Assembly (NCBI GenBank): GCA_001724265.1
Contig: MEDY01000075.1
Span: 1 to 64,000, forward strand
Reading direction: 5' to 3'
From: Rhizaria sp. SCN 62-66
Lineage: Eukaryota
Length of the DNA: 64,000 nt
The notes under the pieces were generated by a model. It was not told the DNA's origin. It ran no database searches and worked only from the letters and a program-made list of their open reading frames with translations. Positions 1 through 57,545 of the stretch are shown here, one piece after another. A program made the position numbers and the translations under genes. How positions within the stretch are numbered: position 1 is the first letter of the stretch; each line of letters opens with the position of its first letter.

Positions 1-32
1 CCCCCCCACCGCTTCCCCCCGCTCTCGCCCCC

Positions 33-4771: not shown

Positions 4772-7700
4772 TTACTCGCTGTTGCGCGGAAAACTGACTG
4801 CAGCCATTAACGCTGCGACGTCGGCATCTGGACTGCACAGTGGCCGGCCAAAATGCAGCAAGAAGTTGTAGACATACGCATACGGGAGCGAGTCAAGACT
4901 GCCTTCGTTGACACTCGCCCAAGCGTTGCTCACGTCACTCGCATGCACATTCACACCCACTCGCGCATTCACATTTACGCTCACACTCGCAGTGTTAGCC
5001 GCGCTAGCGAGCGCAGCAGCAGAGTCGGCGGCAGTGCCATGAATATGAGTAATATGCGTCTTCTTGTCGCCGTTCTAGGTCGTGCTTGTGCCGTTGCTGC
5101 TACGAGCACTGAAATCGCTGCTGTTGTGGAGCGTTGTGTGATTGCTGATATTGAGCGAAGCACGCGTCTGTGCCAGCACGGCCTGGATCGAGCCCGCCAC
5201 AACATCGTCATAATACGGGTCCGCATACAGCGAGGACGCGCCCAGCGACAGGACATCATCAGCCGCCGGTCCCAGCGCCTGTGCCCACAGCCGCAACGCA
5301 GACTCCGGCAGCGCCCAGTGACCGAGGGAGGATGGGTGGCGCGCGGCGAGCTGCGGCTCGGGGTCAGGAAGCCACGTGTTATGACTTACATTCCCATTCG
5401 CGCTTGCGCTGGCGTTGTTCACGCTGCTGCAGCTAATGCTGTTGCTGCTGTTGCTGACGTTGTTGCTGCGAGGGATCGTGAGGAGGTTGAGGTTGATATG
5501 TTCGCGGCTGTGGCGGGACGCTAAGGCCGACCACGCTGCTGCTGCAGCTGCTGCTGAATGGGCCGCGATCACAGGCACCGAATTTGCAACGTTGTTACGC
5601 ATCATCGCAGAGTCAGAGTTGCAATTCACGTCAGTGTCATCAGTTGCACTGGCAGCACGAGAGTCGGCGCGGCTTACATTCCCCGCAGTACTTAGACGCG
5701 CGGCCTCAGCAGCCCAGAGCTTGCTCCGGCGATTACGCACAGCGCGTCCCCTGCGCAACACGCCCTCGGCCCACCGCACGTCGGCACTTACATGCGAAGC
5801 ACTTACATCCGAGACACTTACATTCGAGGCACTTGAACCCGAAGCACTAACCTCGTAAGTGCTTGCATTCGCATCTGAGGCGTCCGAGCTAGTGTTACGC
5901 GTGGAGGCGCTCGTGTAGGTGATATTATTGTTGGTATTGGAGTAGTACTGAGACGGCACAGGGTGTAACGAGGGGTCAGTCGACCACAGAGTCGCATGCC
6001 ACTGTGGCAACGGCACGCCGTCACCAGTCTCCATCTCCACTGCATCTGCTGTTGCTGCTGCTGTTGCTGTTGCCGCTGTTGCTGTTGCTGTTGTTGCTTG
6101 CTTAAGAACACGAGCCCTCGCCTGTGCATGTGCTTTGGCTTTGGCTTTCTCGCCAATCTTGGTCTTGACTTGACGCAACACAGTGGCAAGCAAGCGCAGT
6201 GCAGGGGAGACACTCGTTGCAGAGTACACCAGAGAGCCCGGTACCGTGGAAGTTAAGCCGCTAAAAGTGGAGCCGTCAGCGCTCAAACGAGGCGGTGCAA
6301 AGAGATCAGTGGAGTAGTAGTACAACACTAGACGCGTATACTCTTGCAAAACCCTACACAAAGCGTCAGAAAACAAAACAACTCGAAACAATACGTGAGA
6401 TCCCATAGGAAGGAAAAGAGTACCGCAAATAATTGCTATGTGAACGATTAGAGACGATAGAGAGTTAGACGTACGAAAAGAGAGAGACAATGGGCTTTGC
6501 AGGCGCTAAGATGACCCCAGGCGCAGACAGTGCCGCTGTCGTCACCGCCACCAGCTGCTGCTGCTGCTGCAACTCCTGCTGCTCCTCCAGGTCAGAGTCA
6601 CGCGTACTGGTACCGTGTACCGCATGAGCACCACGTGTACCCGGTGTGATCACCGTCGCGCCACGGTGTCGCAGCGTGAGCGCTAGCCGGGGGTCGAGCA
6701 GGAGCCCACGGCCTAGCACGACGGCCTCAACAGCACCCGTAGCCTCAGCAGCAACGGCAGCGGGACGAACATCAACAGCTGCAGCAGTAGTGCCCTGTGC
6801 GGCAGGGACAGAGCCGTCACAGTGCGCGTTTGAGACGGGGGAGCTGCTCTGAGCTGCTGAGACTGCCGCGGCAACCTGCGACGCTGCGACAAAGCCGCCG
6901 TTGAGCCGCAGCGCAGGCACAATGACAGCCACTGGCGCCTTAGACGCACACCCGTGTGAGTCAGCCGTCGGTGTTGCTGCCAAAGAGGGTTCCGTGTCTG
7001 TGCGCGCGAGTGCGAGTGAAGGCCAAAGCATGGGGGAGATACAGCCTTGGCCAGTGCTCGCAATGACGTCCTCCAAAGCACGGGCGTGCGCAAACGCTGT
7101 GTCAACGCCGTCGGCGGTCGCGGAGGCGGCTAAGTGGGCGTACTCAACGCTGCCGGGCGCGGCGGCGCGTGTGTCTGCAGCGTGCACAGTCACTGAATCA
7201 AAGTTAAGCCGCGGGAGCAGTGCGGCGGCGGCGGCGGCGCGCGCTGCGTGTGACGCGCCCGGTAAGCGGAGCTTGAGTGAGATGGGGATGCGCAAGTGGG
7301 AGCGTAAGGCAGCGGCGGAAGCGTTGAGCTGTGAAACGCAGGCCTCAGCCTCTGGAGTGAGAGTATACTGCGCAGCTGCAGTCCGTACGTGCAGGGGCTG
7401 CACTGCGGCTAGGTCAGAGACAGCGCCAGCGCTAGAGCGCGCGAGAGAGCTAGAATCAGAGATTTTGCTTGAGACGGCGTTCGCGAACGAATACTCTGGA
7501 CCTTTACGATGCTGCTGCGGAGCTTGCTGTTGATCTGGCGCGCTCAAACTAGCTCCGGAAAGCGCACCACTAGAGTTAAACGGGGTTGCATGGGCTGTTA
7601 AGAGTACCGGACTGGGTAGCGCCAATCCAGGAAGGTCGATCGTGATCTGAATCTCAGCCGGCAGCGGCGCCCGTAGACGCCACAGCGCCGCGAGCCTCCG

Positions 7701-7931
7701 CGCCTCCACCACCGTCGCGGGAGGCGTAATCTGCACAATAGTCGGCGCGGCGGCGGGGTCCGAGGTGGCCTTGTGCCAGGCAACAAGGTCGTCGCGGAGC
7801 AGAGCGGCGGTGTTGACGCGTTCGGATGTGGTGAGGTCGGCGCCGAGGGTGAACCAGAGAGCGCGGGCGGCGCGGTCACTCACGCCCTCGAAGGGCGCAG
7901 ATATCAGCCGGATACAGCTGTTTCGCTGCAT
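4772..7931 (-). CDS. Degenerate tRNA-dihydrouridine synthase (Dus)-like TIM-barrel protein; exons 7931-6475 and 6353-4772, with an in-frame TAG at 5075-5077
   Basis: Dus-like motifs in order: LISAPFEGVSD..R....GADLTTSERV, IVQI, IPISLKLRL, DSVTVHA, AVVLGRGLLLDP. A GTACG...TGTAG intron (6474-6354) keeps the frame. The frame stays open 100 codons past the TAG to TAA at 4772-4774. Confidence 0.65.
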
Positions 7932-8361
7932 AAGTTACTGTTTTCCAAGGTAACGCACGAAAAAAGCGCGGTACTGGAGCAAGAATGCTATTGACGGAAA
8001 ATTCACAGAGGTTGGGCCATCTGCAGAGTTGCTCTCTTTGAGGTCGGTCGCGGTCGGCTTGGCTATTTTTAGGAACAGCTGGCTGAGGCGAAGCGAGTTG
8101 CATTTGTGGCAGCGGCGTCAGCGAACTAGTTGGGTTGGGGAGAATGAGATACTTCGCACGAATGGCCCATGGTGTTGTTTACTCTGAATGCAGATGGAGC
8201 ATTTTTGCAGTAATGCATATTTTCTCACTCTTAGTTCCCTTCATTGTGTTTATTTTGTAGGAAACCGGCCGCTTCTTTGCTCCCCCCTCTCGTCCCTCGT
8301 CTCCCTTTCCCTTCGTGCCCTGTTTCAGCGTTCTTCCCCGGCGCCTCACCGCACGTAACGC

Positions 8362-11300
8362 ATGTCGACCGAGAGCGATGACGGGTGGCAGCTTGTGAAC
8401 GCGAAGAAAAAGGTCGCGCCCGCCGCCCCTTCTGGGCAGTCCTCCGGCCACGGGATCGATGCCAACAAAGGCAGCAACGCCAACGCGTCCAACAACAATA
8501 ACAACAACAAGAAGCAGCAGGGTGGCCCCTCGCGCACCGGCACTGCGAACAACCGTGACATTGCGCGCATGTCCTCGCCCGGCGCGGCCTCGGTCAAGAG
8601 CACCTCTTCCAAGGCCGGCGGCGGCGGCGGCAACCAGAACAACAAGCAGGGCAATGGGAAGAGCGGTGGCAAGAGTGCCTACAAGTTCAACAACGGTGGC
8701 ACGGCCGCTCCCAACCAGTGGCGTGACGCTGATAAGGGTATGTTTCACACTCTCTCGCACCGCAACACTCTTCTTTCATGAACGTATATCCGAGTAATCT
8801 CTGCTTTGCGGCTCGTTTCATCTCGATCACATGAGACTCATTTTCCTCCTCTCATTCTCATCTCATTCCTTTATATCTCTCCACTTTCTCGCCATCTCGT
8901 GCTCTCGTACAGCTGGCAACAAGAACAAGAACAACCAGAACAAGCCCAAGGCCCCCAAGCCCGCCGCGGCCGCCTCTGCCCCCAACAAGCCCTCCGCTGC
9001 CGCCTCCGCAGACTCTGCCGCCGCCGCCTCCTCCACCGCCGCCGCCGCCCCTGCTACTGCGGCTGCTGCCGAGGCTGAGGACAACGACGACAACGACGAC
9101 GGCGAGGATGACGACCATGGCAGCAGCGACTACGAGGACGACTCAGAGTTTTCTGATGACGCCAACGACTACTCCGACGACGACGACAACGACGACAACG
9201 CCGAGACGGCCACTCAGGCCAGCACCGCCAACACGCACGCCTCCGCCACCGCCGCCGCGGCCGCCGCCGCCGCCTCTGCCGCCGCCGCTGCCGCCGCCGC
9301 CGCCGCTATCAACGTCGCCGTCAAGCCTCAGAAGCCTACTATCCCCGCCATCCTCGCATCCGACAGCACAGCAACCAGCGCGAATGCGAGTGCACGGCCT
9401 GAGGATGCGCCGTTGCGCGCGGTGACCGTGCCCGTCGGCATCTACCTCCACCCAGGCCACCAGCTCAAGTCGAAGCTCATCGCGGAAGGTCTCAGTCAGC
9501 CCCCGTCCCAGACGACCAAGACGCTCTCCGCTGCCGCGATCGAGTCCGCTGTCGCTGCCGGTGTGTTGAAGCGTACGGCGACGACGGGCGCGCTGGTCAA
9601 GGGCAACGGCATCCCTCTCAAGCACCACCACCCGAGCGGCGCCGCGTCCGCCGGCAACCTTACCGCCTCCGCCGCTGCCGCTGCTGGGGGTGCCGGTGGA
9701 GCCACGGCCGGCACGCCCGGCGTAGCCGACGGCGCGACCGCGACGGGCGACGTGGTGACTGTGATCGCGCCCTCCGCGGCGCCGAGCCGGACTCACACCG
9801 GCGGCGGCGGCGTCCCGCACAAGAAGGGCACGCCCGGTGTGTTCAAGAACCGCGACCGGCCGCTTGACATCGACTGGCGGCGGGGCGATACGCCTGTCAT
9901 CGAGAAGGGCAACAAAGCCAACAACAACGCGAACAAGCAGGGCGGGGGCAAGAGCGAGAACAACAAGAACGCTAACAACAACAACAACAACAACAACAAC
10001 AATAATAGTAAGAAGGGTGGAGCGAAGTCGGCCGCCTCGAGCGCGGCTCCGTCCCGCACGCAGACTGCCAACAACGCTGCTGGCGCGATCACACTCGCGT
10101 CTGCTGCTCCCTCCGCCTCCGCCTCCGCCTCCGCTGCGAGCAACAACAACAGCAACAACAAACATGCGAGCCCGTCGAAGCAGCCTGAGCAGTCCAACAC
10201 CGAGACCGCCTCAGGCTCTGGCGCTGGCGCTGGCTCTGCCAATGCTGACGTGACAGTGTTGAGCTTCTCGCCCTCTGTCCCCGCCACGGGCGCAGTGCCG
10301 GGCGCGGCCGACGTCGTCGTCGAGGAAACCGCCTCCGTCGCCGCCTCTGTCGCCGCCTCCGTCACCGCCTCTGTGGCCGCGTCTGTGACGGCGACAGAGG
10401 CGGCGTCTGGCGGCAACCAGAGCCGCAGTGTCGCATCCGCGTCGCCGTCCCCGTCGCCCGCCGCCACTGCCACCGCCGCCGCCGCCGCCGCTCCTGCCGC
10501 CGCTGCTGCTGCCGCTGACTCGATTGCGACTGTGACTGAGACTCAGGGTGGTGATTTAAACGCTGCGGCGGTCTGTGCCAAGGCTGAGTCACACTCTGGC
10601 AACACCGCTACCAACTCTCACAACAACAACAACACCGACAATGCTCACTCTGCGATGACTGCCTCTGCGTCGTCTGTTTCTTCCAACGCTACCTCTGCGA
10701 ACACTGCTGCTCCTGCCGCTGTCTCGGCCTCTGTTTCTGCCACTGCTGGCGCCGAGAAGGCTGCTGCCTCTGCTGCTGCTGTTTGCAAGAGCGACAAGAA
10801 CAACAAGAAGACGGAGACTGCGCCTGAGAGCGCCGCTGCGAGCGCTAACGGTGGTGAGACTCCATGTGAGAGTGCGAGTGGTAGCGCCGGCCACGTGACT
10901 GCCCAGATCGCCAACAACAGCAAGCCTGTGATCAACAACAACAGCAGCAGCAACGCTCAGCAGCAGCAGCAGCAGAAGCATAAGAATGCGACAACTGCAT
11001 CTGCGTCGAGTGAGAGTGCGTCCGCGGTCGTCGGCGACGCCAGCGACAGCGACGGCGACGAGCCCGCCGCCTCCGCCGCCGCCGCTAGCGCCAAGCCCGC
11101 TGCCGCCAACAACAACAGCAAGGCTAAGGGGGCCAACGCTGCTGCTGCTGCTGCTGCTGCGGCCAACGCCAAGAAGGCTGACGACACCTCGAGGAAGCCC
11201 TCGGCGACCGCGAACGACAAGAACGGCAAAAAAGCTGGCTCTGCTGGCGGCGCTGCCACCGCTGGCGCAGGCGGTGCGACAGCGACCGTGGCTGCAGCGG

Positions 11301-11401
11301 CAGCGGATCCTTTCTCCGGGGATAAGAGCAACTTGTACTTACAGGTCGCAGTTGGCGTGTGTGTGCTTGCACTCACGCTGCGCATTCTTGGCCTCATCTA
11401 A
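8362..11401 (+). CDS. Low-complexity Ala/Asn/Ser-rich protein with a C-terminal transmembrane helix (tail-anchored); exons 8362-8737 and 8913-11401
   Basis: A GTATG...TACAG phase-1 intron joins the two ORFs. Acidic tract present. C-terminus is LYLQVAVGVCVLALTLRILGLI-TAA. No family recognised. Confidence 0.75.
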
Positions 11402-12976: not shown

Positions 12977-13753
12977 TTAGAGCTCATCATGCGCAGCCCC
13001 ATGAGCCTTTGCAGAGGACTTCTTGCCATTATTATTCACATTACCGCTCTTTTTGCCACCACCGTTATGGGCATTCTTATGCGCCTCCGCCTCTTCCGCG
13101 AAATCATGCGGCAAAAGCCCCCCAACCGGGGGTGCATTGCGCTGCACTTTGCCGCCCCCTACGCGCGGCTTGACTTCCTGAAAGAGCCCGTGAGCGGCGT
13201 GCGACCCCATGACCGGCGACGTCCCCCCATTGGCAGCGGGTGAGAGCGGCGGCTGGTCGACAGTGAGCCACGGGAGCTCTCCGCCCCAGCAGAACGTGAC
13301 GGCGACGACCATGCCGAGCAGCGCCGTCAACAGCAGCCCCCACACGCAGGCGAGCCAAGGCACCCAGGCCTGTGCGCGCGCGCTGGCGTCAACGGCGGCG
13401 GCGCGGCGGGCGCGGGCGAAGTCGGCCGAGTGGCCGCGGGCGATCGCGCGGTTGCGGGCGCGCTGGGCGGCGATAGTGGCGGCGTCGAGCCCTAAGGCAG
13501 CGTCCGATTCTGACACCTTGATAGGCCTCGTGTTTAGCCCGCGACGGGAGACTGCGGAGGGGGTGGATAAGGACGCGTTGGGGCTCGAAGTGGTTGCGGC
13601 ATCGGCAGCGGGGGCGGCGGGTGATGTGGACGAAGGCTGCGTCGGTTGCGTCTGCTTAGGCTCCTGAGGCGTGGGCTTTGGAGATTGCTGCTGCTGCTTG
13701 GGTTTGGGGCTTGAGGGCTTGAGCTTGGGGGATGCTGCTGCGGCTGTGGACAT
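12977..13753 (-). CDS. Single-pass membrane protein with a C-terminal HDEL ER-retrieval signal
   Basis: ATG at 13753 (MSTAAAASPK). Hydrophobic segment WLACVWGLLLTALLGMVVAVTFCW. Ends AAHDEL-TAA. Confidence 0.75.
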   Translation of the reverse strand: MSTAAAASPKLKPSSPKPKQQQQSPKPTPQEPKQTQPTQPSSTSPAAPAADAATTSSPNASLSTPSAVSRRGLNTRPIKVSESDAALGLDAATIAAQRARNRAIARGHSADFARARRAAAVDASARAQAWVPWLACVWGLLLTALLGMVVAVTFCWGGELPWLTVDQPPLSPAANGGTSPVMGSHAAHGLFQEVKPRVGGGKVQRNAPPVGGLLPHDFAEEAEAHKNAHNGGGKKSGNVNNNGKKSSAKAHGAAHDEL

Positions 13754-14164
13754 AGCAGCGGGGAGTTGCAGAACGAGTGTGCAGGGACACGCGCGGGCCG
13801 AAGCAGACGAAGCGAGAGAACGCGGGTTTGGAGTTACTGACGGGGCAGTTGGGGCAGCGAGGGCGAGGCACTGCAAATGGAGCAGGGTCGAAATGCATTG
13901 GGTAGTGTGCGATGAGGTCTCCGATAAAGCGATATAAAATAAAAGAAATAGTATCTATTTCGCAATTTACAAATTAATCCTTTTTAAGATGCCTCCAGAA
14001 CGACACGAACACGGCTAACAACATGTTTTGCTTATCCCTCTCTCTCCACTTGCCTCCGGTTGTGCTCTGCACGCAGTGAGAAACCCCACAGTCACCTGCA
14101 CGCTCTCTACGCGAACCTCTCGCACCCACGCTTTGTTGCAGTAGATAGTGCTTTGCGGCGACCC

Positions 14165-17100
14165 ATGTATCGTGCGTTCCGCGGCCTCACACGGCCTCGT
14201 CTCGCACTTCTGCGCGCTGTGCCCTATCTCGCAACTCCTCTCGCAACTGCAGCTGCAACGCCTCTCTCAGCTTCCAGCAGTCTAGCCTCCTCTGCCGCTG
14301 TGAAGCCCTCGCTTGCCGCCTCGCATGCGTGCGCCCTTACAGAGCCTGTCTCCGCGCGCGGCTTTTCTTCCCGCGCCCCTCTCAAGCAGCAGAAGCGTCC
14401 CCCGGCCAAAGTTCCCCCTAAGCCCTCCGCTTCCACTCCGCAGCCCCCGCCGCACGCAGCCGCCGCGCGCGCCGCTGCTCCGTCCGCGAACGCCGCCGAG
14501 GCTGTGTGGAGTCCGCCCTTTCTGCTCGCAGCGTCACCGTTGCCCGCTCGTGCGCCGCCCACCTCGCATTCTTTCCCCACTCTGGCGCCCGCGATGCTCC
14601 CCGGTACGCACCACAAAACAAGGATATATCTTATATAATCACGTAATAGGCAACACATGTAGTGTTGTGATGCATGTGTATTTTGATATTTGTATGATTG
14701 TCATTCGTATCGCTGACTTGGTATCTCATATTTTCTTTGCTGCTCTGCGTCTGTGGACTCAACATCTTGTACTGTCATAGGTTTGCTTGGGGTACCTGGC
14801 TTGCACTCACCTGCCGATTTCCGCCCTCTCGTCGCCGGCGCCGTGTCCCGCGCTTAGGCTCTTCGCTCGCACATTACCCGCTGTACCGAAAAAACCCCAC
14901 CTCGTGTCGTTGTGCAGCTGATTGACGACATCAGTAACGCATTTTGCGCTGTCGTCGATGTCGCAGAGTTCGTCCGCCACGTAAGTCTAACATCACGCAT
15001 ATATCTCCACAAAGCAAATGCTTTATAATCACAATTTTCGCTAATAACGCCAATTTCTATATAACCTGCAAATTTTTTTTAACGCATCAATCACTCATCG
15101 AAATCCCCAAATCGTTACTTCTCTGTTGTTTGTTGTTTTTCTTGACCTAAAACAGCACCATCATGACTCGCGCTGGCGCAACGCCGCGAACGAAGCCTGG
15201 TATGTCCTCCAAGACAAACTCACCGAGTTCTCCCTCGACTCATCGATCATCACCGCTCTCGATACACTGTACGCCCGCCCCGCCGCGCGCGCTCTGTTGA
15301 GCGAGGAGCAACGTCGGTTCATCATCTCTATGCTCGCGACTCTGCCCAAGGACGTTGACGACGCTCTCCGCGCTCGCCAAGCCGCTTTATCGCGCGAGAC
15401 CACGGTGCTTGAGGGCGCGACCTCGGCCGCGATGGCCGCTCCCACGGTCGCTGAGCAGGCGCTCACACTGCCGGTGCCAGGGCTGATGGCGCACGACCAC
15501 CCGCAACTCGCGCGGGCCCGGGCAGTCAAGCTCGCTGACTCCGCGCTCCCGGCGCTCGAAGTCAGCATGCGGCCGAGCGTCGTAACGCGGATGGCGCCAG
15601 GAATGCCCAACCGCTCCGCTCGCCGCAGCCTAACCGCGCTCGCTCAGGGCACTAACGGCTACGACGCCGCGCCGCTGCTGTCAACACTCGTCGCGGCGCG
15701 GCACGAGGTTGCTGCGTTTGCCGGCGCCGCGTCGTTTGCGGAGTCCTCCGCGCGCGCCCACGTCACGCGGTCAACCGACCTCACTGCGTCGGTGCTGCTC
15801 TCCGTGCGGCAGGCTCTCACGCCGCTAGTCGAGGAGGAAGTCGCTGAGCTTGTGAACCTCAACGCGTTCATCCAGCAAATCACCGTGCGCGAGTCGGCGC
15901 TCGCCGCGCAAGCCAAGATCGACACGTGCGTCGCCCCCGCCGGGTTAAGTCAAGCCGCCTCGCTTTCGGCCGCCAAGACAGCGGTTGCGACCGACCCCTG
16001 CGGCCTAGTCGCACCTGTCTGCGATGCCGCGACGGCGCCGCGGGCGCGGCAGGTTCTCGCGGTTGCGTGGGGAGGCGAGCCCGGTCAGTGGGCGCCGCTG
16101 CCTGTCCGCGTTAAAGAGCCGTTGCGGGTCCGGTCGCGCGCTGCCGCGCTGTCGCTCGCGGCCAGTGTCAACACCGCAGACCTCGACCACGCGTCCGCTC
16201 TCGCATTCAACAGCAGCAACGGTGACGATGGCTCGGCGAACTCGCGTTTGCCAGACCGCTCTGGGGGCGGGGCTGGCGTGGCTGCAGTCTCCGCTGCCGC
16301 CGCGGGCGCGATCAAAGGGAAACTAGGCTCGATGCTCAAGTCTGCCGCCGCATCCGTGCTGTCAAACTCTGCCTCCGCCGTCGCGAATTCAGAGGCAGCT
16401 GCCGAGGCCGAGGCGGCCTCTCTGACGGCCGCGGCGGCGCGTGTTCTGCGTGTCTCTGACGCTGAGGCCGCCAAGGGCGGTGACCCACGCAGGTGGCTAC
16501 TGCAGGGCCGCGCGCGCGCTCGGTCCATCCTCCGCTCCCCGGCTGCGACGACGGTTCTGCCCCTCACAGCGCACGGCGAGGATGAAAGTCAAGCCGCGTC
16601 CGCCGGCGCCGGTCGTTGCGCCCCACTGGCGCTGCATGATGCTGACTGCGCCCGCCAGGCCGCGGCAGGGCTTATTGACGCACACAGGGCCTCGCTGTCG
16701 ACGAGCGGGCATGCTCCCGGTCACTCTGCAAGCGGTGTGAGCACTGGACTGAGGCCTGGTGAAATGGCCGACGACGACACCCGCCTCGCGCGGCATTTAT
16801 CGCTCGCGAACGTCGTCAACGGGCTCGATCTCTGGGCGTATACCGTGTTTGGCGTGCGGCTGATTCCGGTGCCTCTGCGCGCGGACGAAGCGTGGGTGCC
16901 CTCGCCCCTTGCCAGCGGCGCCAACGACACCCCCGGCAACTCGATCGTGAAGCTCCTCGTGGTCGACCGCAGTGCGCACCGCGCTCCGCATGCAACGTCG
17001 TTTGCGTTCGAAGCCGGTGCACATGCGGCGGTGATTGGTGACGGTGAGCTGATGGGTGTTGTGTATCTGGATCTGTTTCACCGCAATCATAAGCAGCCGG

Positions 17101-18989
17101 GGGCGGCGACGTTTACTGTGCAGTGTGGCCGTGTTGTGAGTCCGTTTGATGCGGACAGTGTGACACTGGAGGCTGTTGAGGCTGCCAACAATACGGCCAC
17201 CGTTGCAGAGTCACTTGCTCTCTCTGCCAACTCACACTCTAACAACAGCAACAACAACAGCAGCCGTGATGATGATGCGAGCATGAATGACGTCTCGAGC
17301 AGTGACGCTGCTCACGCTAAGGCGAATAGCTTCAACAGTGCACGTATCTCTGATGTCGCTGAATTGTACCCGCACTTGGCTGGCACTGGCCTCGGCTCCG
17401 GTGACAACGCGTCTCTGTCGCGCTCGCAGTCTCAGTCGAACAAGAGTGCGATTAGCAATGCGCGGTACCAGATGCCGGTCGCCGTCGTGTCTATGACTTG
17501 CCGCCACGTGGCCGCCCCACCCATGCGGACCGCCCCCACAGGTTCCACCCCATTACTCGTGCATCCCGACAACTTGGAGACGATTTTCCACGAAATGGGT
17601 CACGCCATGCACGCGATGCTCTCCCGCACTCAGTACCAGCACCTCGCGGGGCTCCGCGGCGAGCTCGATTTCGTCGAAACGCCCTCGACGCTGGCCGAGT
17701 TTTTCGCGCATGACCCGCGCGTTGTCTCCCGCTACGCGCGCGCGCTCGAGACGAACCAGCCGTTGGCGGAGCGTGACCCGCTGCTGACACGCCGCGCGCG
17801 TAAGCAGAATCTGTTCGCCGGGATCGACACGCTGAACGACGTGTATAACGGGCTGCTGGATCAGAGGATGTTTGGCGCGCCGGCCGCGTTTGATCCTCAT
17901 CGCGTTTTCCCGCAGTTTGAGCACTTGGACGGCGGCGGTGAAACCAGCGTCAACACAAGCGCAAACGCGAACTCGAACTCTGTTTCCAGCGCTAGTTCTG
18001 AAGTGAGCACGGCGTTGACGAATGAGGAAGCGGTGACTGTGGCCGAGTCGCACGGCTACTGGCTGGCTCCGGCACAGGAAAGCATGATGCCCACCATCGC
18101 GCGTCTTTTCCCCGTTGCCAACGACGCCCAATCGCGGCACGCGCACGCACACCCGGCTCAGATCTACCTCATTGCACAGCAACTGCGCACGTTCGTCCAC
18201 CCGCTGGCGCTGACCCCCGGCTCAGTCAACTACGCGACCGTCGGCCACTTCGTCTCGTACGGCGGCACGTTCTACACGTATCTCTTCTGTCGGATCTTCG
18301 CGTGGGCGCTCTGGCATAAGTTGTTCCGTGAGTCTCCTCTGGGGCCCGGGGCGAGGGCGGGCGGCGCGAGGCTGAGGCGGATGCTGACGGCGGGCGGGGC
18401 GCGCAGTCCGATGGATCTCCTCGTCGAAATCCTCGACACCCACCCCACCGCTAGCAACAACAACGGCAACAAAAGCACGAGTAGCTCATCCAGTGCGAGT
18501 GTGAGCGGCGATAAGTCTCTGCTCAGCGCTGCGTTGCTACCTGTAACTGTGGCGCCTCGTGACCCCGTCACTGGCCAGGTGTGCGCTCCAGCCACACTGA
18601 CTCTGCCGTGGGCTGAGGGCGCGGCGGCGCAGCGCGCTGAGATGGTGGAACCGCTTGAAGGTATGTGGCAAACCTTACCACATTATCTTCGAAACAACAT
18701 TCGCAAATTTACCTCGTATGACATGTAACGAAACTATTTGATAATGAAACGAATTATATATAGTATATGTGTATGTAAACTCAATGTAGTTTATTTTGTT
18801 TTTAATGTCATACGCTAACATCAATGCCTCTATTTGTTCACTTTTGTGCTATCTTTAGAGCGTCACGTGCGTGCACTCAACCAAGCGTTGCAGCTTTATG
18901 TGGCTGAAGTCACCGCTGCAAGCAGGGATGCACTGGAGGAGCTGCGGCAGGATATGGCGCTTGCTACGGCGCATCACAGGCGGATGTAA
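14165..18989 (+). CDS. MIPEP: Mitochondrial intermediate peptidase (M3 family, Oct1/MIPEP-like); exons 14165-14603, 14781-14980, 15156-18660, 18859-18989; in-frame TAG at 14855-14857
   Basis: Arg/Ala/Ser-rich presequence MYRAFRGLTRPRL. Exon 2 encodes the MIP N-terminal block GLLGVPGLHSPADF...IDDISNAFCAVVDVAEFVRH. Zinc motif FHEMGHAMH, plus DFVETPSTLAE and HFVSYGGTFYTY. All three introns are GT-AG and phase-compatible. Confidence 0.9.
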
Positions 18990-19352
18990 GTGCTTCGGCT
19001 AAGTACCCCCGCTCAGTAGCTGCGCGCTAAGTAGCGACGCTCAAATGCAGTGCTTTCTGCTTACACTTTACTATTGTAAACTGTGAACTTATATTTATTT
19101 AATAAATCGTGAAGATACAAACTACAAGGCTGGCTTGATAGCCAATTCAATAAACAAAGAGCCCTTTTTAATCAATTTAGAGGTGATATTATTGTTTTGT
19201 ACATGTATTGCTAAGCCGTTGGCCAGTACTTACGTGGCCTGTCCGCTACATTGCATGCTTTTTATACTGCAACTGCGTCAATTATGTTATGAACTAAAGT
19301 AACGATATTAGTATTGTGATTCTTCTCGACAGCAACGCGTACGCATGCCCAC

Positions 19353-22300
19353 TCACTGCGGCTGCGCCTGTTGCTGCTGGTTGTGCTGCGAAGGCAGTGT
19401 CGTCGACAGGTTAAAACCGCCACCGACAATCTTGGGCTGAGATGCAAAGAACGTACGCTGCTGTTGGAACAGAGGGTCCGCCTTGAGAGTCTGGGTCGCA
19501 GTCTTGCTTTTTTGCTTCGTCAGCAGCTCCTGCTTGCGCTGCTCGAAGTACTTTTTCTTCACATCCTGTGTTTGTAAGAAGAAAACAAAACAATGCAAAA
19601 AGTGACAAAAAATTAACGAGACACAACACAACGAGAGAAACGTGAGTAATTGACTAAAAAAAGGAATGATACCATAGAATACTAGAACATCAAATAGAGA
19701 ACGTTATTTGGATGGATTACAAGTAAGAATGAAGCGTACCTGGTGCTCACGCGAGATCTTATCGACCTCATACTTGTACTCATTGGCCTGCGCCTGGAAG
19801 AGGTTGAGCTCGGCCGCCATCGCCCGCATCTGGCGCGTCTTATCCTTCAGCGCGGTCTGATACACCGTGAGCTGCTCCGCGAGCTCGGGGCCCGGGTGGC
19901 GGGCAACAACTTTCTTAAGAGCGAGGTAAGCACGCTCTTTCTCCTCGAGCTGCATATCACGACCGACGACTTCCTCCGTCTTGGAGATGAGACGCTTCTG
20001 CAGAGTGTGGATCTTCTGGATCAGCTCGAACTTCTTCGGGTCGGAGCCTTCAAGGTTGCGCCAGCGGTGCACGTTCATCGGGTTCTCAAGCTCCTCAGAG
20101 AGGGCCTTGACCTTAGTGCGCTCATGCAGAAGCTCGCGCTGGATGTGGTAAACCTATGGTGTGGCAAATTTAGACCATAGATAACAAAGATAAAGCCGAG
20201 TGAGTAAAAAATCATTATCGAACATACAAGTGTCCATAAATCAATCAATACATTAAATTAAACATACAAAACACAAATCTTAGTATATATCGATACGAAA
20301 CGTGAACGTACCTCGTTCTTGAGCGCATCGATGTTAGTGACCTCCTGCGAGCGAATCTGGAGTTCCTGTTTCAGGTTGTTGATCGCAATCTTGAGCGCAC
20401 GCAAGTCCTGCAAACGCTCACGGTACTGCACTTCACCCTTGTTGAGCGTCGACTGCTGAATACGGACCTTCTCGTACAGCAGAGCGAGCTCATCATTGCG
20501 GCGAATGAGCTGTGTACCGAGGATATCACGCTCTTGCATCAGCTCGTCATACGCGCGCTCCTGCTGGTGGTGCGCCACCTCGGCCTCGATGAGCTGCCGA
20601 CGCAGAGCCTTGATCTCGCTGTCCTGCGACGAAAGCACCTGGTCCGCAGTCGCGAGAACTTCCTTGCGTTTGTTGAGCTTCCGCTTGGCGACTTTCATCT
20701 CCGCTTGGAGACGCTTGCACGCGAAATGCTCGTTGATGAGTGCGTTGTCCTTGTTCTGGATCTCTTCCTTAAGCTGCTCGATCTGGTGCGCCATCATCGC
20801 GAACTTGTGCTTCATTTCACTGATGTCGTCCTTTTGCAGCGCCTGCTGCTTTGAGCACTTGTTGCGATCAGACCGCACTTGCTCATACAGACTCTGCTGC
20901 AGCTTGAGCTTATTACGCTCTTCGGAGATTTGCGCGTTGAGCTCGGCGATTTCCACCTCCTTGAGCTTCGCCTGCTCACTGGCTTCGGAGAATTTCGCGT
21001 GCCACAGTGCGGCAGTCATGGCAGCCTTCTCACGCTGCTTCTCAAGCATGTAGTTACGCTTGCGCAGCTGCTGCTCCTCGACCTTATGCGACAGAATGTC
21101 CTCCTCGAGCGTCTTCTTAACCAGCTCAGCGTCCTCGACAAGCCGGAACTGATCACTGTTCTTCTGGTTCGCGGCATGTACACTTGCTGCCAGCCGCTTG
21201 ACCTGGGTCTGAAGCTCAGAGATGATACGCTCGTCCACTTCGGCGTCCTTGCGCTGGGCCTCGAACGACTGGAGAACAGTCTTCATCTGGCCTTTAAGCC
21301 AGTCCTTATATTTCTCGCTTTGGGCACGTTTCTCGCCCATCTGCTCGCGGTCACGCTCGGCCTTTTGCCGCGCCAGAGTCTCCTCACGAAGCTTCTCACG
21401 CACCTTGCGAAGTTCCTTGGCCTTCTCGAGGCTCTCGTCAATCGCAGCCTGCTTCTCGGTCAACGCCTTGCTCTCAAGCTCGGCGTGGGTCTGCCGGTCC
21501 TTGTCGAGCTGCGTGTTGCGACGGCGCAGGTCCTCCGCGAGTTGGTGAAACCGCTCACGCGCAGCCTCGGCTTCGCGCACCTTGCCTTCGAGCTCACGGA
21601 TTCGGTCGTCGCGCTCAGTCAACGCGGCCTGCTTCGCGGTGAGGTCCTTCACGGTGTCTTCGTGCGCGCGCTGCACGTTGACCATCTGCTGCTGGAACTG
21701 GGCCGCCGTGGAGCGCTCGCGGGCGGCGTGCTCTTGGAGCTGCTTCTTCTCCTCCGCGAGCTTGTCCGCGTCCTTCTGCATCGTCGTGATCACCTGCTCG
21801 AGTTGCGCGTTCTTGGATGAAAGCTCGCGCATGAGAGCGTTGGTGGCGTCGATCGTCTTGACGTGCATCTCAACCTCTTTTGTCAGGTCTTCCTTGATCT
21901 TGAGGAGTTCGTTGACGGCGTTCTCCTGCCCGATGCTGAGGCCGGCACCTTGGTCAACGAGCAGCGAAAGTGACTGGATCTCAACCTTGAGGCGTTGGAT
22001 GGTATCGCGCGCACGGCGCTCCTTCTCCTGAGCGCCGTCAATCATCCGCCAGGCCTTGTCAAGCTCTTTCTTGAGGAGAGTGATGCTGTTCTGGTCTTGC
22101 ACGGAGAGGCGGAGCGCGGTTTGGATCTTGGCGGCGTTGGCGACGATTTCTTGGTTAAGCTCGCGGCACTTCTTCACAAGACGTTTCTCGTTCTCGTAGG
22201 AGCGCTTGAGGGTGGCGTGGAGCTTCTCGTACTCAACACGAAACTTCTCCAGGTTCTTCCCGCCGACAATCTCGTTGAGAACGTCTTTGAAGTCGCGCTC

Positions 22301-24628: not shown

Positions 24629-27600
24629 TTATTCAAACTCGTCTAAGTAGTCGAGGTCATCATCCAGATCACCCATAGGCTCAACAGCAGCAGGCGCCGC
24701 AGCGGGTGCAGCCACAGCAGCCGCAGCAGGGGCAGCGGCGGGAGAGGCAGCAGTGGATGCGGCGGCGGGGGCCGGGGCGGGGGGCTTGACTGGCGTTGCA
24801 GCTACAGAAGCAGGGACAGCAACAACAGCAGCAGCAGGAGCAGCAGTGGCGGCGGGGGCAGCAGCAGGCTTAGAAGACTCGAAGTCGAGGTCGTCACCGA
24901 ACATGTTATCATCATCGTCGTCATCATTAATGGGCTTCGCGGCAGGAGTAGCAGCAGCGGCGGCCTTAGCCTTGGCCTCAGCCTCAGCCTCAGCCTCAGC
25001 CTTGGCCTTGGCCTCAGCCTCAGCCTTGGCCTTGGCCTCAGCCTCAGCCTTGGCCTTGGCCTCAGCCTCAGCCTCAGCCTTGGCCTTGGCCTCAGCCTCA
25101 GCCTTAGCCTTGGCCTCAGCCTCAGCCTTAGCCTTGGCCTCAGCCTCAGCCTTAGCCTTGGCCTCTGCGTCAGCCTTTGCCTTCGCCTCGGCGGCAGCAG
25201 CAGCAGCCTTCGCATCCGCCTCAGCCTTGGCCTTAGCCTCAGCCTCTGCCTTTGCCTTAGCCTCTGCCGTTGCCTTGGCTTCGGCCTCGGCAGCCGCCTT
25301 AGCGTCACCCTCAGCCTTAGCATCAGCAGCAGCCTTGGCCTCTTCAGCAGCCTTGGCCTCAGCATCAGCTCTAGCCCTCGCTTCAGCCTCAGCCTTAGCT
25401 TGAGCCTCGGCCCGAGCCTTTGCATCGGTATCTGCCTTTGCCTTTGCATCGGCATCTGCCTTAGCGTCAGCGTCAGCCTTTGCCTTAGCATCGGCCTCGG
25501 CCTTGGCTTTGGCATCGGCGTCTGCCTTGGCCTTGGCCTCAGCCTCCGCTTGTTGCTGCTGTTGTTGTTGCTGCTGCTTAGCAGAGGGCTGTTGAGCTGA
25601 CTCATCCTCAGGTAGCAAAATCACAGTCAGACTTGCATTGGCGCCGCTGTTCTTGTTGTTCGCCTGCTGCTGCTGTTGCTGCTGCTGAGGTGCCTTAAGA
25701 GCAAGCGTCATCGTATGTCCACCTGCAGAGCTAGAGCTAGAGCTAGAGCTGTTGTTGTTGTTGTTGTTGTTGAGGTTAGTAGTGGCACTGCTGTCCTCAA
25801 AGCCATCGTCATACTCGCCACTCTCCCCACCAACAGCATTCGCACGACTATTGTTGTTGTTGCTGTTGTTGTTGTTATTAGGGTTAGAGCGGGCATTGGC
25901 GTCTGGCACAAGAGACGACAACGGTGCATCAACAGAGCACAGTACAGCCTGTGCAAAGCCCCCTGCCATGGCACAGACGTCAAACCGCAACATCACAGCG
26001 TCCGCGCTAGAATGCGACTCTGCATTAGCCTGCTGCGATTGAGCTGACTGTGACGATGACTGGGTGATGAGAGCGGGGATCGAGAGTTGCACTGCCTTTT
26101 GGAACACAGGAGCAGTTGTGCCGTACACACACTCTGTCCGGTCCACAAACTCGAACTTGTCCCCCACGTGTACCCACACAAACACTGCGGCATCGCACCC
26201 ACCGGCTCCGTGGGCACTCGCGGCGGCGCTGGAACCTGTGGCCGAGCTGCTCGAAGGGAGGCCGCTGCAGGTGACTGTGAGCAGCGCGGTGCCCTTGGCA
26301 CGCGCGAGGGTAGCTTGCTTGACGGCAGCTTGGGCGCGTTGAACGGCCTCTTCTTCAGACTCAGCATTGTTGGCGTCACCGTCGCCGCTGCTGCCGTTGC
26401 CGCTGCCGTTACCGTTGCTGGGGAGAGCGGGAGCAGGGAACGTGGCGTCAATGCGCTCAGCAGCGACCTGCAGCACCAGCTCAGGCCCCTTCTCGTGCCA
26501 CCAGAGAGCGGGCAGCACGGCCGCGATCAGAGCCGCGGTGTTCTCGGGCGCAAGGACGTCGGGGTTGTCGCTGAAAACCTAAGCAACAAAAGTATATTTG
26601 AAGACATAGACGTGAGTAAAATTAAACAATAACAAATGATTAGATATGAAATAGATCATGAAAGTGAATTAATAAATATAACTCTAGTTGGTGCAGATAT
26701 GGTTGTTGTTTCGTGTTGTTTTGTAGGAGTGGGAAGTGACATACTTGGCGGAGAGTGCGGAGCGGCAGCGACACTGGCGCAAGCGTTGACCGCCCGGCCT
26801 CATCCCGAGCAAGGAAATCCAGCCTGAAGGGGCGCAGACGCTCGTAGACTGACAGAGTGGACATGATCCCGCCGATCCGGACGCCGCGGGACGAGTAGAC
26901 ACAGGTGTTGTGGGCAGCGGCGGCGGCGTCGTCGTCGTAGCCGTATTCGTCCCCGTCGTCCTCAGCATACTGCTGCTGCTGACTGTTGTGCTGCTTGTTG
27001 CCGCGGGAATTGTTACTATGGGCGAGGCAGGGGGCGCCACGACCGCCGGGCTTGGATCCCGCAGGCGGCTGCGGCCTCTTGCCGTGCTGTTGCTGCTGCT
27101 GTAGCTGCTGCTGGTCGGCGTGGGCGCTCTGCTCGCGGTCAGGGTGGAGCGCAGTGCCGCCCGCCGCTCCGGGGGGCGCATAGGGGTCATGGGCGATCGC
27201 CACCGTGCGCGGCTGATGCGGGTATCGCGAGATGGACTTGAGCCGCGCCTCTTTCTCATTATGCGCGCGGTCAAACTCGGCCGCGGAGTACACGGGGCGG
27301 CGGTTCTGGATGCGCCGCAGCAGGGCCTCGTTTTCCCCCATTACGCGCATCATCTCCCGGCGGCGACGCTCGCCGTTGAGGGTCTCCTTGACGTAGGGAC
27401 CATCGCGGCTGACGTGGGTGGTTGAGGCACCGATGCGCTCCATTTTGCGCAGAAGAATCATGTTGTCGCGCTCAATCGTCGCAGCACGCTCTAGATAACA
27501 TTAAAATTGTGCATTATATAGAAATTGAGAGGAAAGTTAGATTTCAGTCTGCTGAGTAACCGACAAGGCGGGAAAGCACACAAAAGCGATGCAAAGCGGG

Positions 27601-56078: not shown

Positions 56079-57545
56079 TTAGATGACCGTGGCTTGATTT
56101 CCCGCGGCCGGCACAGGCCTGAGCGCGCCATAGTAGTGGTTCGCATCCCTGACCTCCGTCACACCGCCGGCCTGCGCCCGCAGCCTCTCTGTCTCAACCG
56201 CGTCTTCCGCGATCAACTTGCGCAGCGCGGCGTCCTGAGCGTCGCGGGTGGCTTGCGGGATCGACGCGAGGCGCAGGATTTTACCGTCCATCATGTGTAC
56301 CACGCGGTGCGCGTAGTACTGGAGATCGTTGTCATGTGTTACCATGATGCAAGTAATGCCCTCGCGGCGGGACAGCTCAACCAGCAGACTGAGGATGACA
56401 CGCGAGCTCTTGGTGTCCAAATCGCCGGTCGGCTCATCAAGGAGCAGCACGTCCGGGCAGTTCGCGATGGCGCGCGCGATGGTGACGCGCTGTTGTTCGC
56501 CGCCTGACAGCTGCGACGGGAGGTGCAGCGACCGGCGCCCGATGCCGACTTGGTCGAGCAGGAACTGGGCGCGCGCGTCGATGTCGCTGCGGGACAAACG
56601 GCCGTCGAGAATCATCGGCAGAGCGACGTTTTCGAGCGCTGTCATGGTCGAAATAAGGTTAAACTGCTGGAAGACGAAGCCTAAGTGGCGCAGACGCAGC
56701 TTCGAGAACTCGTCGTCGGTGGTCGCGCTTGTGATGCGGCGCTGTGCGATGTACAGCTCACCCTTCGAGGGCCGGTCGATGGTGCCGAGGATGTTGAGCA
56801 TCGAGGTCTTGCCGCCGCCCGACTTGCCGAGGATGACAATAAACTCGCCGCGGGCGATGGAGAGGTTCACGCCGCGCAGGGCGGGGACGCCGTCGAGGCC
56901 GAGGAGGTAGGTTTTGTGTACGTTGACGGCCCGGATGACGACGTCTTCGGGGTTAGGGATGATGATCCCGTCACTGTTACGCGTGAAATCACCCCCACCC
57001 TGTTGCTGCTGCTATTGTTGGCGGCCCTGGCTCTGGGCCTGTTGGGAGGAGATGTGGGGCAGCTGGAGAGCGGGGTTGAGGCGGGAATCGTTGTTGAGCA
57101 GAGCTGAGCCGACGCCAGAGCACGAGCCGATGTTGCTGTTGTTGTTATTGTTGTTGTTCAGAGCGTAGGCGGAGAAGGAGGAGGAGACGTTACCGTTGTT
57201 GTTGCGCGGGCTGTTGTCGTCCTCCTCGAGAAGCTCCGACTCCTCCAGGGTGTTGGCGGCGTTGTTATTGTTGGTCTCGTCAGGGTGGACCTGGGATGGA
57301 GACTTGCTGCGGCGGCGGCCACTGTTGCTGTTAGGTGCTGTTGAAGCGTCTGCGAGCAAGTCCGGCGACGGCTGGACGGAGCGGAGAGGCGCGCTGCCCG
57401 TCGTCGTGGTCACGTCAGCGCCACCAGCGTTGTTGTTGTTCGCGGCGGAGGCAGAGGGGGGGAGGTTCGAGTCCGATGAGAGGGAGGAAAGGGGGTAGAA
57501 GTCAAAACCGCCGGGCCCGGTCTGAGACGTGGGGATCTGGCTCAT
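56079..57545 (-). CDS. Stand-alone ABC ATPase (LolD/MacB/FtsE-like; resembles Dictyostelium AbcH type) with an in-frame TAG at 57012-57014
   Basis: ORFs 57012-57545 and 56079-56870 share one frame. VNVHKTYLLG..ALRGV, Walker A GKSGGGKT, LGFVFQQFNL, LSGGEQQR, LLLDEPTGDLD and MVTHD. The only in-frame ATG upstream of Walker A lies before the TAG. Confidence 0.88.

What the first reader, a model, noticed from the sequence alone, without database searches (positions are those of the whole stretch)
14781..14980. In-frame TAG inside the conserved N-terminal exon of mitochondrial intermediate peptidase
The exon reads GLLGVPGLHSPADFRPLVAGAVSRA*ALRSHITRCTEKTPPRVVVQLIDDISNAFCAVVDVAEFVRH, with MIP-like sequence on both sides of the TAG. 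Using this TAG as a splice acceptor for the 14604 donor would shift the frame and delete the conserved GLxGVPxL block. The rest of the gene, including HEMGH, is intact. From my recollection of homologues, the position is a polar helix residue (Q/E, as in an 'AQxL' pattern), consistent with Gln. This exon is invisible in the standard-code ORF track.
Basis: partly seen in the sequence, partly recalled or inferred. Interest (0 to 1): 0.85.

Follow-up and report, generated by a model that had tools for sequence, protein, structure and literature searches.

The report
TAG stop codon read as sense
An uncultured wastewater protist seems to read the stop codon TAG as an amino acid, probably glutamine, so standard-code gene prediction would wrongly cut some of its genes short.

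Summary
TAG sits at 14855-14857, in frame, as codon 172 of a three-exon M3 (mitochondrial-intermediate-peptidase-like) gene. Homology to 27 relatives runs unbroken across it (column: E 9, Q 5, D 4, A 3, N 3, K/R/S 1 each). The same letters are in contigs of other sequencing runs, so it is not an assembly error.

Three other splicings were tested. Two hit an early stop. The third, a 75-nt GC-rich mini-intron, costs 26 bits of profile score and is unlike this organism's introns.

A second in-frame TAG (57012-57014, minus strand) lies inside a glutamine run, 'QQ-TAG-QQQQ'. It is upstream of the only domain of an ABC ATPase, with no Met between it and the Walker A motif. A third (5075-5077, minus) rests on composition alone.

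None of the 17 gene ends I judged genuine uses TAG (TAA 14, TGA 3).

Best reading (0.72): TAG is a sense codon, probably Gln, while TAA and TGA still terminate. This is a table-15-type nuclear code in an unidentified GC-rich flagellate.

Not shown: transcripts over the TAG, a tRNA with anticodon CUA, eRF1, and the taxon.

The parts
14165..14603 (+). Exon 1 of the M3/MIP-like peptidase gene. ATG at 14165-14167, and the exon ends in phase 1. The N-terminus looks like a presequence.
   Evidence: Sequence reading. Model translation: the first 60 residues hold 6 R+K and 1 D+E. No targeting predictor was run.
14604..14780 (+). Intron 1: 177 nt, GTACGC...ATAG, GC 0.37.
   Evidence: It fits the window's heuristic intron set: 26 candidates, median 177 nt, GC 0.29-0.42.
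14781..14980 (+). Exon 2: 200 nt, GC 0.59. It encodes the conserved N-terminal block and is needed to keep exon 3 in frame.
   Evidence: Skipping it gives a stop at residue 150.
14855..14857 (+). In-frame TAG, codon 172 of the model. Proposed sense codon, probably Gln.
   Evidence: (column E 9, Q 5, D 4, A 3, N 3, K 1, R 1, S 1 of 27), (same letters in X4 and X3 contigs).
14981..15155 (+). Intron 2: 175 nt, GTAAGT...ACAG, GC 0.33.
15156..18728 (+). Exon 3: 1,190 codons plus TAA. It carries the M3 catalytic domain with long low-complexity inserts.
   Evidence: neurolysin 6.4e-19; 3,997 proteins at E<=0.001; best is P0006 at 58% identity.
17589..17603 (+). HEMGH zinc-binding motif.
56079..57545 (-). 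ABC ATPase gene in one exon: ATG at 57543-57545, TAA at 56079-56081, with one in-frame TAG.
   Evidence: PF00005 1.2e-29 on residues 224-374. GC3 is 0.81 upstream and 0.82 downstream of the TAG..
57012..57014 (-). Second in-frame TAG, inside a glutamine run (caa caa TAG cag cag caa cag). It lies 45 codons before the ABC domain starts.
   Evidence: There is no Met between it and the Walker A motif. All 12 aligned homologues start with Met well upstream of the domain.
5075..5077 (-). Third candidate in-frame TAG, in a low-complexity ORF (4772-6541, minus). The frame stays coding-like for 100 more codons, to a TAA at 4772.
   Evidence: Codon-score scans only and context. Neither side has a Pfam match. 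The letters are confirmed in X4 record 9 and X3 record 1.

Best explanation
In this organism's nuclear genes TAG (UAG) is translated as an amino acid, most likely glutamine. TAA (mostly) and TGA still end genes. That is the pattern of NCBI table 15.

Shown here: TAG occupies an ordinary, homologous residue position in the N-terminal helix region of the M3/MIP-like peptidase. A second TAG sits inside a Q run of an unrelated ABC ATPase. In both genes the downstream, clearly selected domain can be made only if the ribosome reads through.

Inferred, not shown: a tRNA with anticodon CUA, most simply a tRNA-Gln(CUG) derivative, decodes UAG. eRF1 has lost or weakened UAG recognition. UAG is rare as a sense codon, two or three seen in the window, as expected for a young or weakly used reassignment.

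My confidence that TAG is read as sense is 0.72. About two thirds of that goes to Gln.
For: (1) MIP gene. Twenty-seven homologues align ungapped across the TAG. A profile built from them scores the exon at 103.2 bits in one stretch.
(2) Alternative splicing. Skipping exon 2 stops at residue 150, and using the TAG as acceptor stops at residue 169. The only frame-keeping alternative is a 75-nt GT..AG piece. It has GC 0.59 against 0.29-0.42 for 26 heuristic introns of median 177 nt. Removing it lowers the profile score to 77.2 bits and splits the match in two.
(3) The next Met after the TAG is 100 residues downstream, which would discard the conserved block.
(4) ABC gene. The TAG is flanked by Q codons. 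A 178-codon ORF with GC3 0.81 that starts with ATG lies upstream in the same frame. There is no Met before the Walker A motif. All 12 aligned homologues have a Met-started N-terminal extension. The closest relative, P0292, is 79% identical over 305 residues beginning 6 residues after the TAG.
(5) Scans for a stop flanked by best-frame coding sequence on both sides. One scan gave TAG twice and TAA once, and that TAA is antisense to a PRP6-like gene. The other gave TAG twice and TAA once, and that TAA lies just before a start codon. Neither gave TGA.
(6) Gene ends. Of 31 ORF ends examined I judged 17 genuine: TAA 14, TGA 3, TAG 0. The 24629 end was rechecked.
(7) The letters at 14855 and 5077 are the same in contigs of other runs.
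(8) The bases after the three TAGs are G, C and A, so there is no shared readthrough context.
Against: Only 64 kb could be examined. No genome is held, so there are just two solid cases and one soft one.

No RNA contig was listed over exon 2, and none was laid on 57014. The TAG is therefore not shown in mature mRNA.

There is no tRNA gene in the window and no eRF1, so the mechanism is untested.

The MIP column favours Glu (9) over Gln (5).

The part of the ABC protein before the TAG has no significant similarity to the closest relative (best E 0.23). Its coding status rests on composition and on the lack of another start.

The 0-of-17 figure is a small sample judged by eye. Only two of those ends were checked against homologues' C-termini. 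One of the 17, the TAA at 4772, counts only if TAG 5077 is read through. If TAG 5077 is a real stop, the figure is 1 of 17. In a genome that so favours TAA, a TAG stop could simply be rare.

CAG-to-TAG is also the commonest route to a nonsense mutation in CAG-rich genes: 164 CAG against 44 CAA in 5,810 codons.
Confidence: 0.72

Rival explanations
1. TAG is a sense codon but stands for another residue: Glu, as in some ciliate codes, or less likely Leu, Ser, Tyr or Lys.
For: The MIP column holds E in 9 and D in 4 of 27 homologues, against Q in 5. The profile consensus at that column is 'e'. Discussion passages of PMC11687900 report UAG=Glu, UAG=Leu and UAG=Ser in other lineages.
Against: The second TAG is embedded in caa caa TAG cag cag caa cag. 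There a single C-to-T change from CAG, with no change of residue, is the simplest history. No Leu, Tyr or Trp occurs in the MIP column (0 of 27). The column is not strongly conserved, so it discriminates poorly.
Confidence: 0.18
2. TAG is still a normal stop codon. These genes depend on gene-specific or generally leaky readthrough by near-cognate tRNAs, so only a fraction of ribosomes make the full proteins.
For: TAG is very rare inside genes here, two or three cases in the window. That would suit a costly event. No tRNA(CUA) has been seen.
Against: The TAGs lie early in the genes, before the catalytic or ATPase domains. A stop there would waste most translation and invite mRNA decay. Known programmed readthrough adds C-terminal extensions (recalled, not from a call). 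The three contexts share nothing: the next bases are G, C and A. No genuine gene end among the 17 judged uses TAG.
Confidence: 0.1
3. The TAGs are nonsense mutations. These copies are pseudogenes or null alleles, and working copies lie elsewhere.
For: C-to-T at CAG is the easiest nonsense change in these CAG-rich genes. The rest of the genome cannot be searched.
Against: Each gene has exactly one lesion and it is the same codon. Exon 3 of the MIP gene stays open for 1,190 codons with HEMGH intact. The ABC gene is 79% identical and 88% similar to a relative over 305 residues without a break. The same letters occur in runs of different years and studies. The window holds no second M3 gene. The metagenome scan returned no paralogue, only the identical locus L001 and seven distant loci of 28-46% identity.
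Confidence: 0.06
4. The TAG is removed or changed at the RNA level, by an unusual short GC-rich intron (14843-14917 keeps the frame) or by U-to-C editing.
For: Removing 14843-14917 (GT...AG, 75 nt) leaves one open frame. No RNA contig over the exon could be inspected.
Against: That piece has GC 0.59, a GTGTCC donor and less than half the usual length. It encodes 25 residues that all 27 homologues possess, and it is worth 26 bits of profile score. Nothing intron-like surrounds the ABC TAG, where GC is 0.65 and 0.58 on the two sides. Nuclear U-to-C editing of stop codons is not something I know from any eukaryote (recalled).
Confidence: 0.05

Closest known systems
UAG-only reassignment to Gln with UAA/UGA kept as stops (NCBI table 15 type), reported for the fornicate Iotanema spirale, the ciliate Protocruzia tuzeti and some phyllopharyngean ciliates (PMC11687900 discussion passages; PMC5304391 passages)
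   Same: Only TAG is seen inside genes. TAA dominates and TGA also ends genes. Gln is the most likely meaning.
   Different: Here the genome has GC-rich exons with uniform AT-rich introns of about 177 nt. The organism is not identifiable as a ciliate or fornicate. Sense TAG is far rarer, two or three in the window. The tRNA, eRF1 and transcripts are unseen.
Rhizarian exLh, UAG=Leu (PMC5304391 passages)
   Same: UAG alone is reassigned. The genuine stops reported there were UAA 56 and UGA 15, a ratio close to the 14 and 3 found here.
   Different: There UAG is frequent (384 in 71 genes) and falls at conserved Leu positions. Here the one informative column has no Leu (0 of 27) and the other TAG lies in a Q run.
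Amoeboaphelidium protococcarum, where TAG and TAA both appear to encode Gln (PMC6299283 passage)
   Same: A stop-to-Gln change in a non-ciliate microbial eukaryote. Its relatives use the standard code.
   Different: In this window TAA is the main terminator (14 of 17) and never appears inside a confirmed coding frame. This is therefore not that code.
Mitochondrial intermediate peptidase (MIP/Oct1), peptidase family M3
   Same: PF01432 domain, HEMGH motif, the N-terminal G-L-x-G...DF and LDxIS..C..D.AE blocks shared with 27 homologues, and a basic N-terminus free of acidic residues.
   Different: It is about twice the usual length (1,403 residues) because of long Ala/Ser/Asn-rich inserts, and it carries the in-frame TAG.

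Membership tests
Peptidase family M3 | Match to the family profile above the curated cut-off | tested here: met
   PF01432: 165 bits against a cut-off of 27, E 5e-48, in 4 stretches.
Peptidase family M3 | HExxH zinc motif | tested here: met
   HEMGH at 17589-17603. The best PDB matches cover this region: neurolysin at 6.4e-19, thimet oligopeptidase at 1e-13.
Mitochondrial intermediate peptidase subfamily (MIP/Oct1) | Conserved N-terminal block upstream of the catalytic domain, shared with MIP-type homologues | tested here: met
   A profile of 27 homologues scores 103.2 bits over exon 2 and the start of exon 3 (alignment). That these homologues are MIP rests on one source name, 'intermediate peptidase', in the cluster of P0010, and on my recall of the motif.
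Mitochondrial intermediate peptidase subfamily (MIP/Oct1) | Mitochondrial targeting presequence | tested here: inconclusive
   The first 60 residues hold 6 R+K and 1 D+E. No targeting predictor was available.
Mitochondrial intermediate peptidase subfamily (MIP/Oct1) | Orthology shown by a tree against other M3 subfamilies | not tested
Nuclear code with UAG=Gln and UAA/UGA stops (table 15 type) | In-frame UAG at sense positions of several unrelated genes | tested here: met
   The MIP gene and the ABC ATPase. A third case rests on composition only.
Nuclear code with UAG=Gln and UAA/UGA stops (table 15 type) | UAG absent from genuine termination sites while UAA and UGA are used | tested here: met
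   TAA 14, TGA 3, TAG 0 among the 17 ends judged genuine out of 31 ORF ends examined. The sample is small and judged by eye. It becomes 1 of 17 if TAG 5077 is a true stop.
Nuclear code with UAG=Gln and UAA/UGA stops (table 15 type) | UAG positions correspond to Gln in orthologues | tested here: inconclusive
   There is one alignable column: E 9, Q 5, D 4, A 3, N 3, K 1, R 1, S 1 of 27. The second TAG lies in a Q run, which is an insertion relative to the closest relative.
Nuclear code with UAG=Gln and UAA/UGA stops (table 15 type) | A tRNA with anticodon CUA | not testable with these tools
   The window holds 0 tRNA genes and no Rfam match. No genome is held.
Nuclear code with UAG=Gln and UAA/UGA stops (table 15 type) | eRF1 altered in its stop-codon recognition region | not testable with these tools
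   None of the window ORFs scanned against Pfam is an eRF1.
Nuclear code with UAG=Gln and UAA/UGA stops (table 15 type) | UAG retained in mature mRNA, or a peptide across it | not tested
   The single read-laying run listed no RNA contig over exon 2 and did not include 57014.
UAR=Gln code (table 6 type, e.g. Amoeboaphelidium) | TAA also used as a sense codon, with TGA as the only stop | tested here: not met
   TAA ends 14 of the 17 genes. The only in-frame TAA hits of the scans are one antisense to a real gene and one in a 5' leader.
UAG=Leu code (rhizarian exLh type) | UAG at positions held by Leu in orthologues | tested here: not met
   Leu occurs in 0 of 27 homologues at the one alignable column, and the other TAG is in a Q run. 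This rests on only two sites.

The most novel reading that the evidence does not exclude
This is an independent, early-stage capture of UAG as a Gln codon in a so far unsampled lineage of free-living flagellates from wastewater. Its tyrosyl-tRNA synthetase is closest, among named sequences, to animal and other holozoan ones. If that placement held, it would be the first nuclear code change in or near Holozoa. Sense UAG is still very rare and TAA has already taken over termination. That would be a snapshot of the codon-capture route, not of a long-established code.
Probability: 0.25. Interest if true: 0.8.

Novelty: new member of a known kind. Interest (0 to 1): 0.62.

Why it matters
Nuclear code changes are rare outside ciliates, and cases where UAG and UAA differ in meaning are rarer still (PMC5304391, PMC11687900, passages read). 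A new lineage would be a further test of how such changes start: codon capture after TAA takes over termination, or an ambiguous intermediate. Sense TAG is still very scarce here, which makes this lineage useful for that test.

There is also a practical cost. Standard-code annotation of this organism's contigs, which recur in bioreactor, wastewater, activated-sludge and fuel-cell runs, will split or truncate genes. This peptidase and the ABC ATPase are examples.

Tried and rejected

- The genome search 'own': no genome is held.
- The first homologue search with the whole exon 3 found nothing. I put this down to low-complexity words filling the candidate list. The full phmmer scan worked instead.
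- ARAGORN found 0 tRNA genes and Rfam gave 0 matches.

**Relatives and taxon**
- The metagenome scan gave 8 loci. L001 is identical to window 15362-21009 and misses exon 2. The other 7 are distant (28-46%). The contig of the 57-58% relative P0006 was not in that collection, so the TAG column could not be read in a close relative.
- Cluster look-ups gave no organism names.
- The Atlas search was uninformative on the taxon.

**Reads**
- Read laying: no RNA contig was listed over exon 2. Depth in bin 14664-15147 was 0.18 for X6 and 0.67 for X8. This is no evidence either way.

**Other in-frame TAGs that are not recoding**
- TAGs before exons at 22480, 26581, 37209, 39872, 47394, 50968, 44348, 30971, 20156, 46172 and 61796 have AT-rich sequence upstream. 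I read them as intron acceptors. The TAG at 31017 lies inside an intron.

**Scans**
- False positives: TAA 52052 (minus) is antisense to a PRP6-like gene. TAA 8356 is in a 5' leader. TAG 13657 (plus) appeared only in a 12-codon scan and lies in a + frame inside the span of the minus-strand ORF 12977-13954 that ends in HDEL; I treat it as noise, though neither that ORF nor the overlapping + ORF has a Pfam match.
- Short-window scans were too noisy to use and also missed the true cases.

**Third TAG (5075-5077)**
- Neither side has a Pfam match.
- A weak kexin match to the part after the TAG (E 0.06) is not significant.

**ABC gene**
- The part before the TAG shows no significant similarity to P0292.

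**Gene end at 24629**
- Two rival frames there translate to simple repeats and were dropped.

**Considered and rejected without a test**
- Pyrrolysine or selenocysteine. The column is a variable surface-type position, and no such system is known to me in eukaryotes (recalled).

**Literature**
- Searches for a wastewater eukaryote or a holozoan with a changed code listed nothing relevant (listings only).
Full report
**1. The observation**

The window is a eukaryotic, intron-bearing stretch. Its exons are GC-rich and its introns and spacers are AT-rich. That stop is TAG at 14855-14857.

The gene model is:
- exon 1, 14165-14603: ATG start, ending in phase 1;
- intron 1, 14604-14780: 177 nt;
- exon 2, 14781-14980;
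- intron 2, 14981-15155: 175 nt;
- exon 3, 15156-18728.

Translated, this gives 1,403 codons and a terminal TAA. The TAG at residue 172 is the only internal stop.

Exon 3 matches Pfam Peptidase_M3 at 165 bits against a cut-off of 27. It carries HEMGH at 17589-17603. It hits neurolysin and thimet oligopeptidase among solved structures.

**2. Is the TAG an artefact?**

No whole genome is held. The stretch does recur in public runs labelled bioreactor, wastewater, activated-sludge and microbial-fuel-cell metagenomes.

Contigs of X4 (record 13, 13802-15364) and X3 (record 7, 14348-18406) lie on it with no differing letter and no gap. X3 may be a source sample, whereas X4 belongs to another study. 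I therefore take the TAG as a real, widespread DNA state.

No RNA contig was listed over exon 2, so the transcript remains unseen.

**3. Is the TAG inside coding sequence?**

An exhaustive phmmer search with exon 3 found 3,997 relatives at E<=0.001. Of the best 150, 27 carry the N-terminal motif that my pattern recognises. I aligned only those 27; the other 123 were left out, many being fragments or lacking the N-terminus.

All 27 align without a gap across the TAG. The column holds E 9, Q 5, D 4, A 3, N 3, K 1, R 1 and S 1. A profile built from the 27 alone scores our exon at 103.2 bits in one stretch.

I tested three ways of avoiding the TAG:
- Skipping exon 2 stops at residue 150.
- Using the TAG as acceptor for the 14604 donor stops at residue 169.
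- Removing a 75-nt GT...AG piece (14843-14917) keeps the frame.

The third option fails on other grounds. The piece has GC 0.59, while 26 heuristic introns in the window have GC 0.29-0.42 and a median length of 177 nt. Removing it drops the profile score to 77.2 bits and splits the match in two.

Starting translation downstream is not credible either. The next Met is 100 residues on, which would discard a block that is plainly conserved. The TAG therefore occupies an ordinary residue position of a protein under selection.

**4. Is it one gene or the organism?**

I compared stop-to-stop ORFs under the standard code and under TAG=sense. I also scanned for stops flanked on both sides by coding-like sequence in the same frame.

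Most in-frame TAGs at the starts of exons are intron acceptors, with AT-rich sequence upstream and GC-rich downstream. Introns here very often end in TAG.

Two further TAGs differ from that pattern.

- **57012-57014, minus strand.** The codons read caa caa TAG cag cag caa cag. Upstream, in the same frame, lies a 178-codon ORF that starts with ATG and has GC3 0.81. Downstream is a 310-codon ORF with GC3 0.82 that holds the only domain, ABC_tran at 1.2e-29.
  - There is no Met between the TAG and the Walker A motif.
  - All 12 aligned homologues, several from complete transcript ORFs, begin with Met well upstream of the domain.
  - The closest relative, P0292, is 79% identical over 305 residues starting 6 residues after the TAG.
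  - Against this, the part before the TAG shows no significant similarity to that relative.
- **5075-5077, minus strand.** This lies in a low-complexity ORF and rests on codon scores alone. Neither side has a family match.

The same scans returned no TGA. They returned only two TAA hits, which I explain otherwise: one is antisense to a PRP6-like gene and the other is in a 5' leader.

**5. Gene ends**

I examined 31 ORF ends. I judged 17 genuine because GC-rich coding sequence runs up to the stop with no donor-like site before it. The other 14 run on into introns.

The 17 use TAA 14 times, TGA 3 times and TAG never. The end at 24629 was rechecked, and its rival frames are repeat artefacts.

The limits of this count are plain:
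- the sample is small and was judged by eye;
- only the MIP and ABC ends were compared with homologues' C-termini;
- the end at 4772 counts only if TAG 5077 is read through.

**6. Explanation**

The simplest account is a variant nuclear code in which UAG is a sense codon while UAA and UGA terminate.

Gln is the likeliest meaning. One TAG sits in a Q run one transition away from CAG, and CAG is the main Gln codon here (164 CAG against 44 CAA in 5,810 codons). The MIP column would fit Glu at least as well, so I keep Glu as a live alternative.

A tRNA(CUA) and a changed eRF1 are inferred, not seen. The window has no tRNA gene, no Rfam match, and no eRF1 among the ORFs scanned.

The rivals each explain less:
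- Leaky readthrough of a true stop. This is unlikely so early in two genes and with three unrelated contexts.
- Nonsense alleles. This would mean two otherwise intact genes, each with one lesion and the same codon.
- Removal at the RNA level. No intron-like sequence surrounds either solid TAG.

**7. What organism?**

This is unresolved. The window encodes ciliary proteins (CFAP58, CFAP97), so the organism builds a flagellum.

Its tyrosyl-tRNA synthetase has unnamed metagenomic relatives at 83% and 60-68% identity. Every organism-named row among the best 120 hits is an animal, at about 41-63% identity (most 49-56%). One EukProt row has a 'Clim' prefix, which I recall as Corallochytrium. Database bias towards animals makes this a lead, not a placement.

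The code is not that reported for Amoeboaphelidium, where TAG and TAA both appear to encode Gln (PMC6299283, one passage read).

**8. Comparison and novelty**

UAG-only reassignments are in print. I read passages, not the whole papers, and the supplements are closed:
- UAG=Gln in Iotanema spirale, Protocruzia tuzeti and some phyllopharyngean ciliates;
- UAG=Leu in a rhizarian;
- UAG=Ser in Scotinosphaera (PMC11687900 and PMC5304391).

The kind is therefore known. What would be new is the lineage and the very low use of sense TAG. My searches listed no wastewater eukaryote and no holozoan with such a code (listings only).

**9. Verdict**

TAG read as sense: 0.72, with Gln taking about two thirds of that. 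I class it as a new member of a known kind, with interest 0.62.

The main weakness is the thin sample: one 64-kb window, and no RNA, tRNA or eRF1 evidence.

Noticed in passing
window-wide; e.g. 14604-14780, 14981-15155, 44174-44350, 50807-50984, 61305-61481: Introns look strikingly uniform. In a heuristic set of 26 the median is 177 nt, GC is 0.29-0.42 against about 0.6 in exons, donors are GTA(C/A/T)G(T/C) and the acceptor is very often TAG. The heuristic keeps the longest acceptor, so some ends are approximate.
   Followed up: partly
8737-8911 (+): One contig of run X8 (record 25) joins 8736 to 8912, skipping 175 nt. This fits an intron between a first exon that starts near 8362 and the 867-codon ORF 8798-11401.
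   Followed up: partly
17 gene ends across the window: TAA is strongly preferred as terminator (14 of the 17 ends judged genuine) even though GC3 of coding sequence is about 0.75.
   Followed up: partly
6465-7934 (-): A dihydrouridine-synthase-like ORF of 489 codons. Only the first ~70 profile positions match Pfam Dus (E 3.8e-05; PDB DusB E 0.006). The rest looks like a very divergent barrel with long inserts. Its link to the ORF that holds the third TAG is unclear.
   Followed up: partly
29825-32019 (-): A three-exon gene that combines a fumarate-reductase-type FAD_binding_2 domain with a C-terminal cytochrome b5 domain.
   Followed up: no
24629-26578 (-): A 649-codon ORF with a long (A/E/K) repeat of the 'AEAKAK' type and an acidic tail. 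Its repeat makes two other frames look coding by GC3.
   Followed up: partly
45786-47391 (-); 56079-57545 (-); 15156-18728 (+): Unnamed metagenomic proteins of what appears to be a related species exist: 83% identity for TyrRS (P0173), 79% for the ABC ATPase (P0292) and 57-58% for the peptidase (P0006). They would allow a direct test of the code in a relative if their contigs could be fetched.
   Followed up: partly
15156-18728 (+), 3-4064 (+), 33151-37206 (-): Many proteins carry long Ala-, Ser-, Asn-, Thr- or Gln-rich inserts that roughly double their length. These caused a word-based homologue search to fail.
   Followed up: no
4775-5074 (-): The 100 codons after the third TAG give a weak, non-significant match to kexin-type subtilases around the His and Ser motifs (E 0.06). 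The catalytic Ser position is not kept. This is probably chance.
   Followed up: partly
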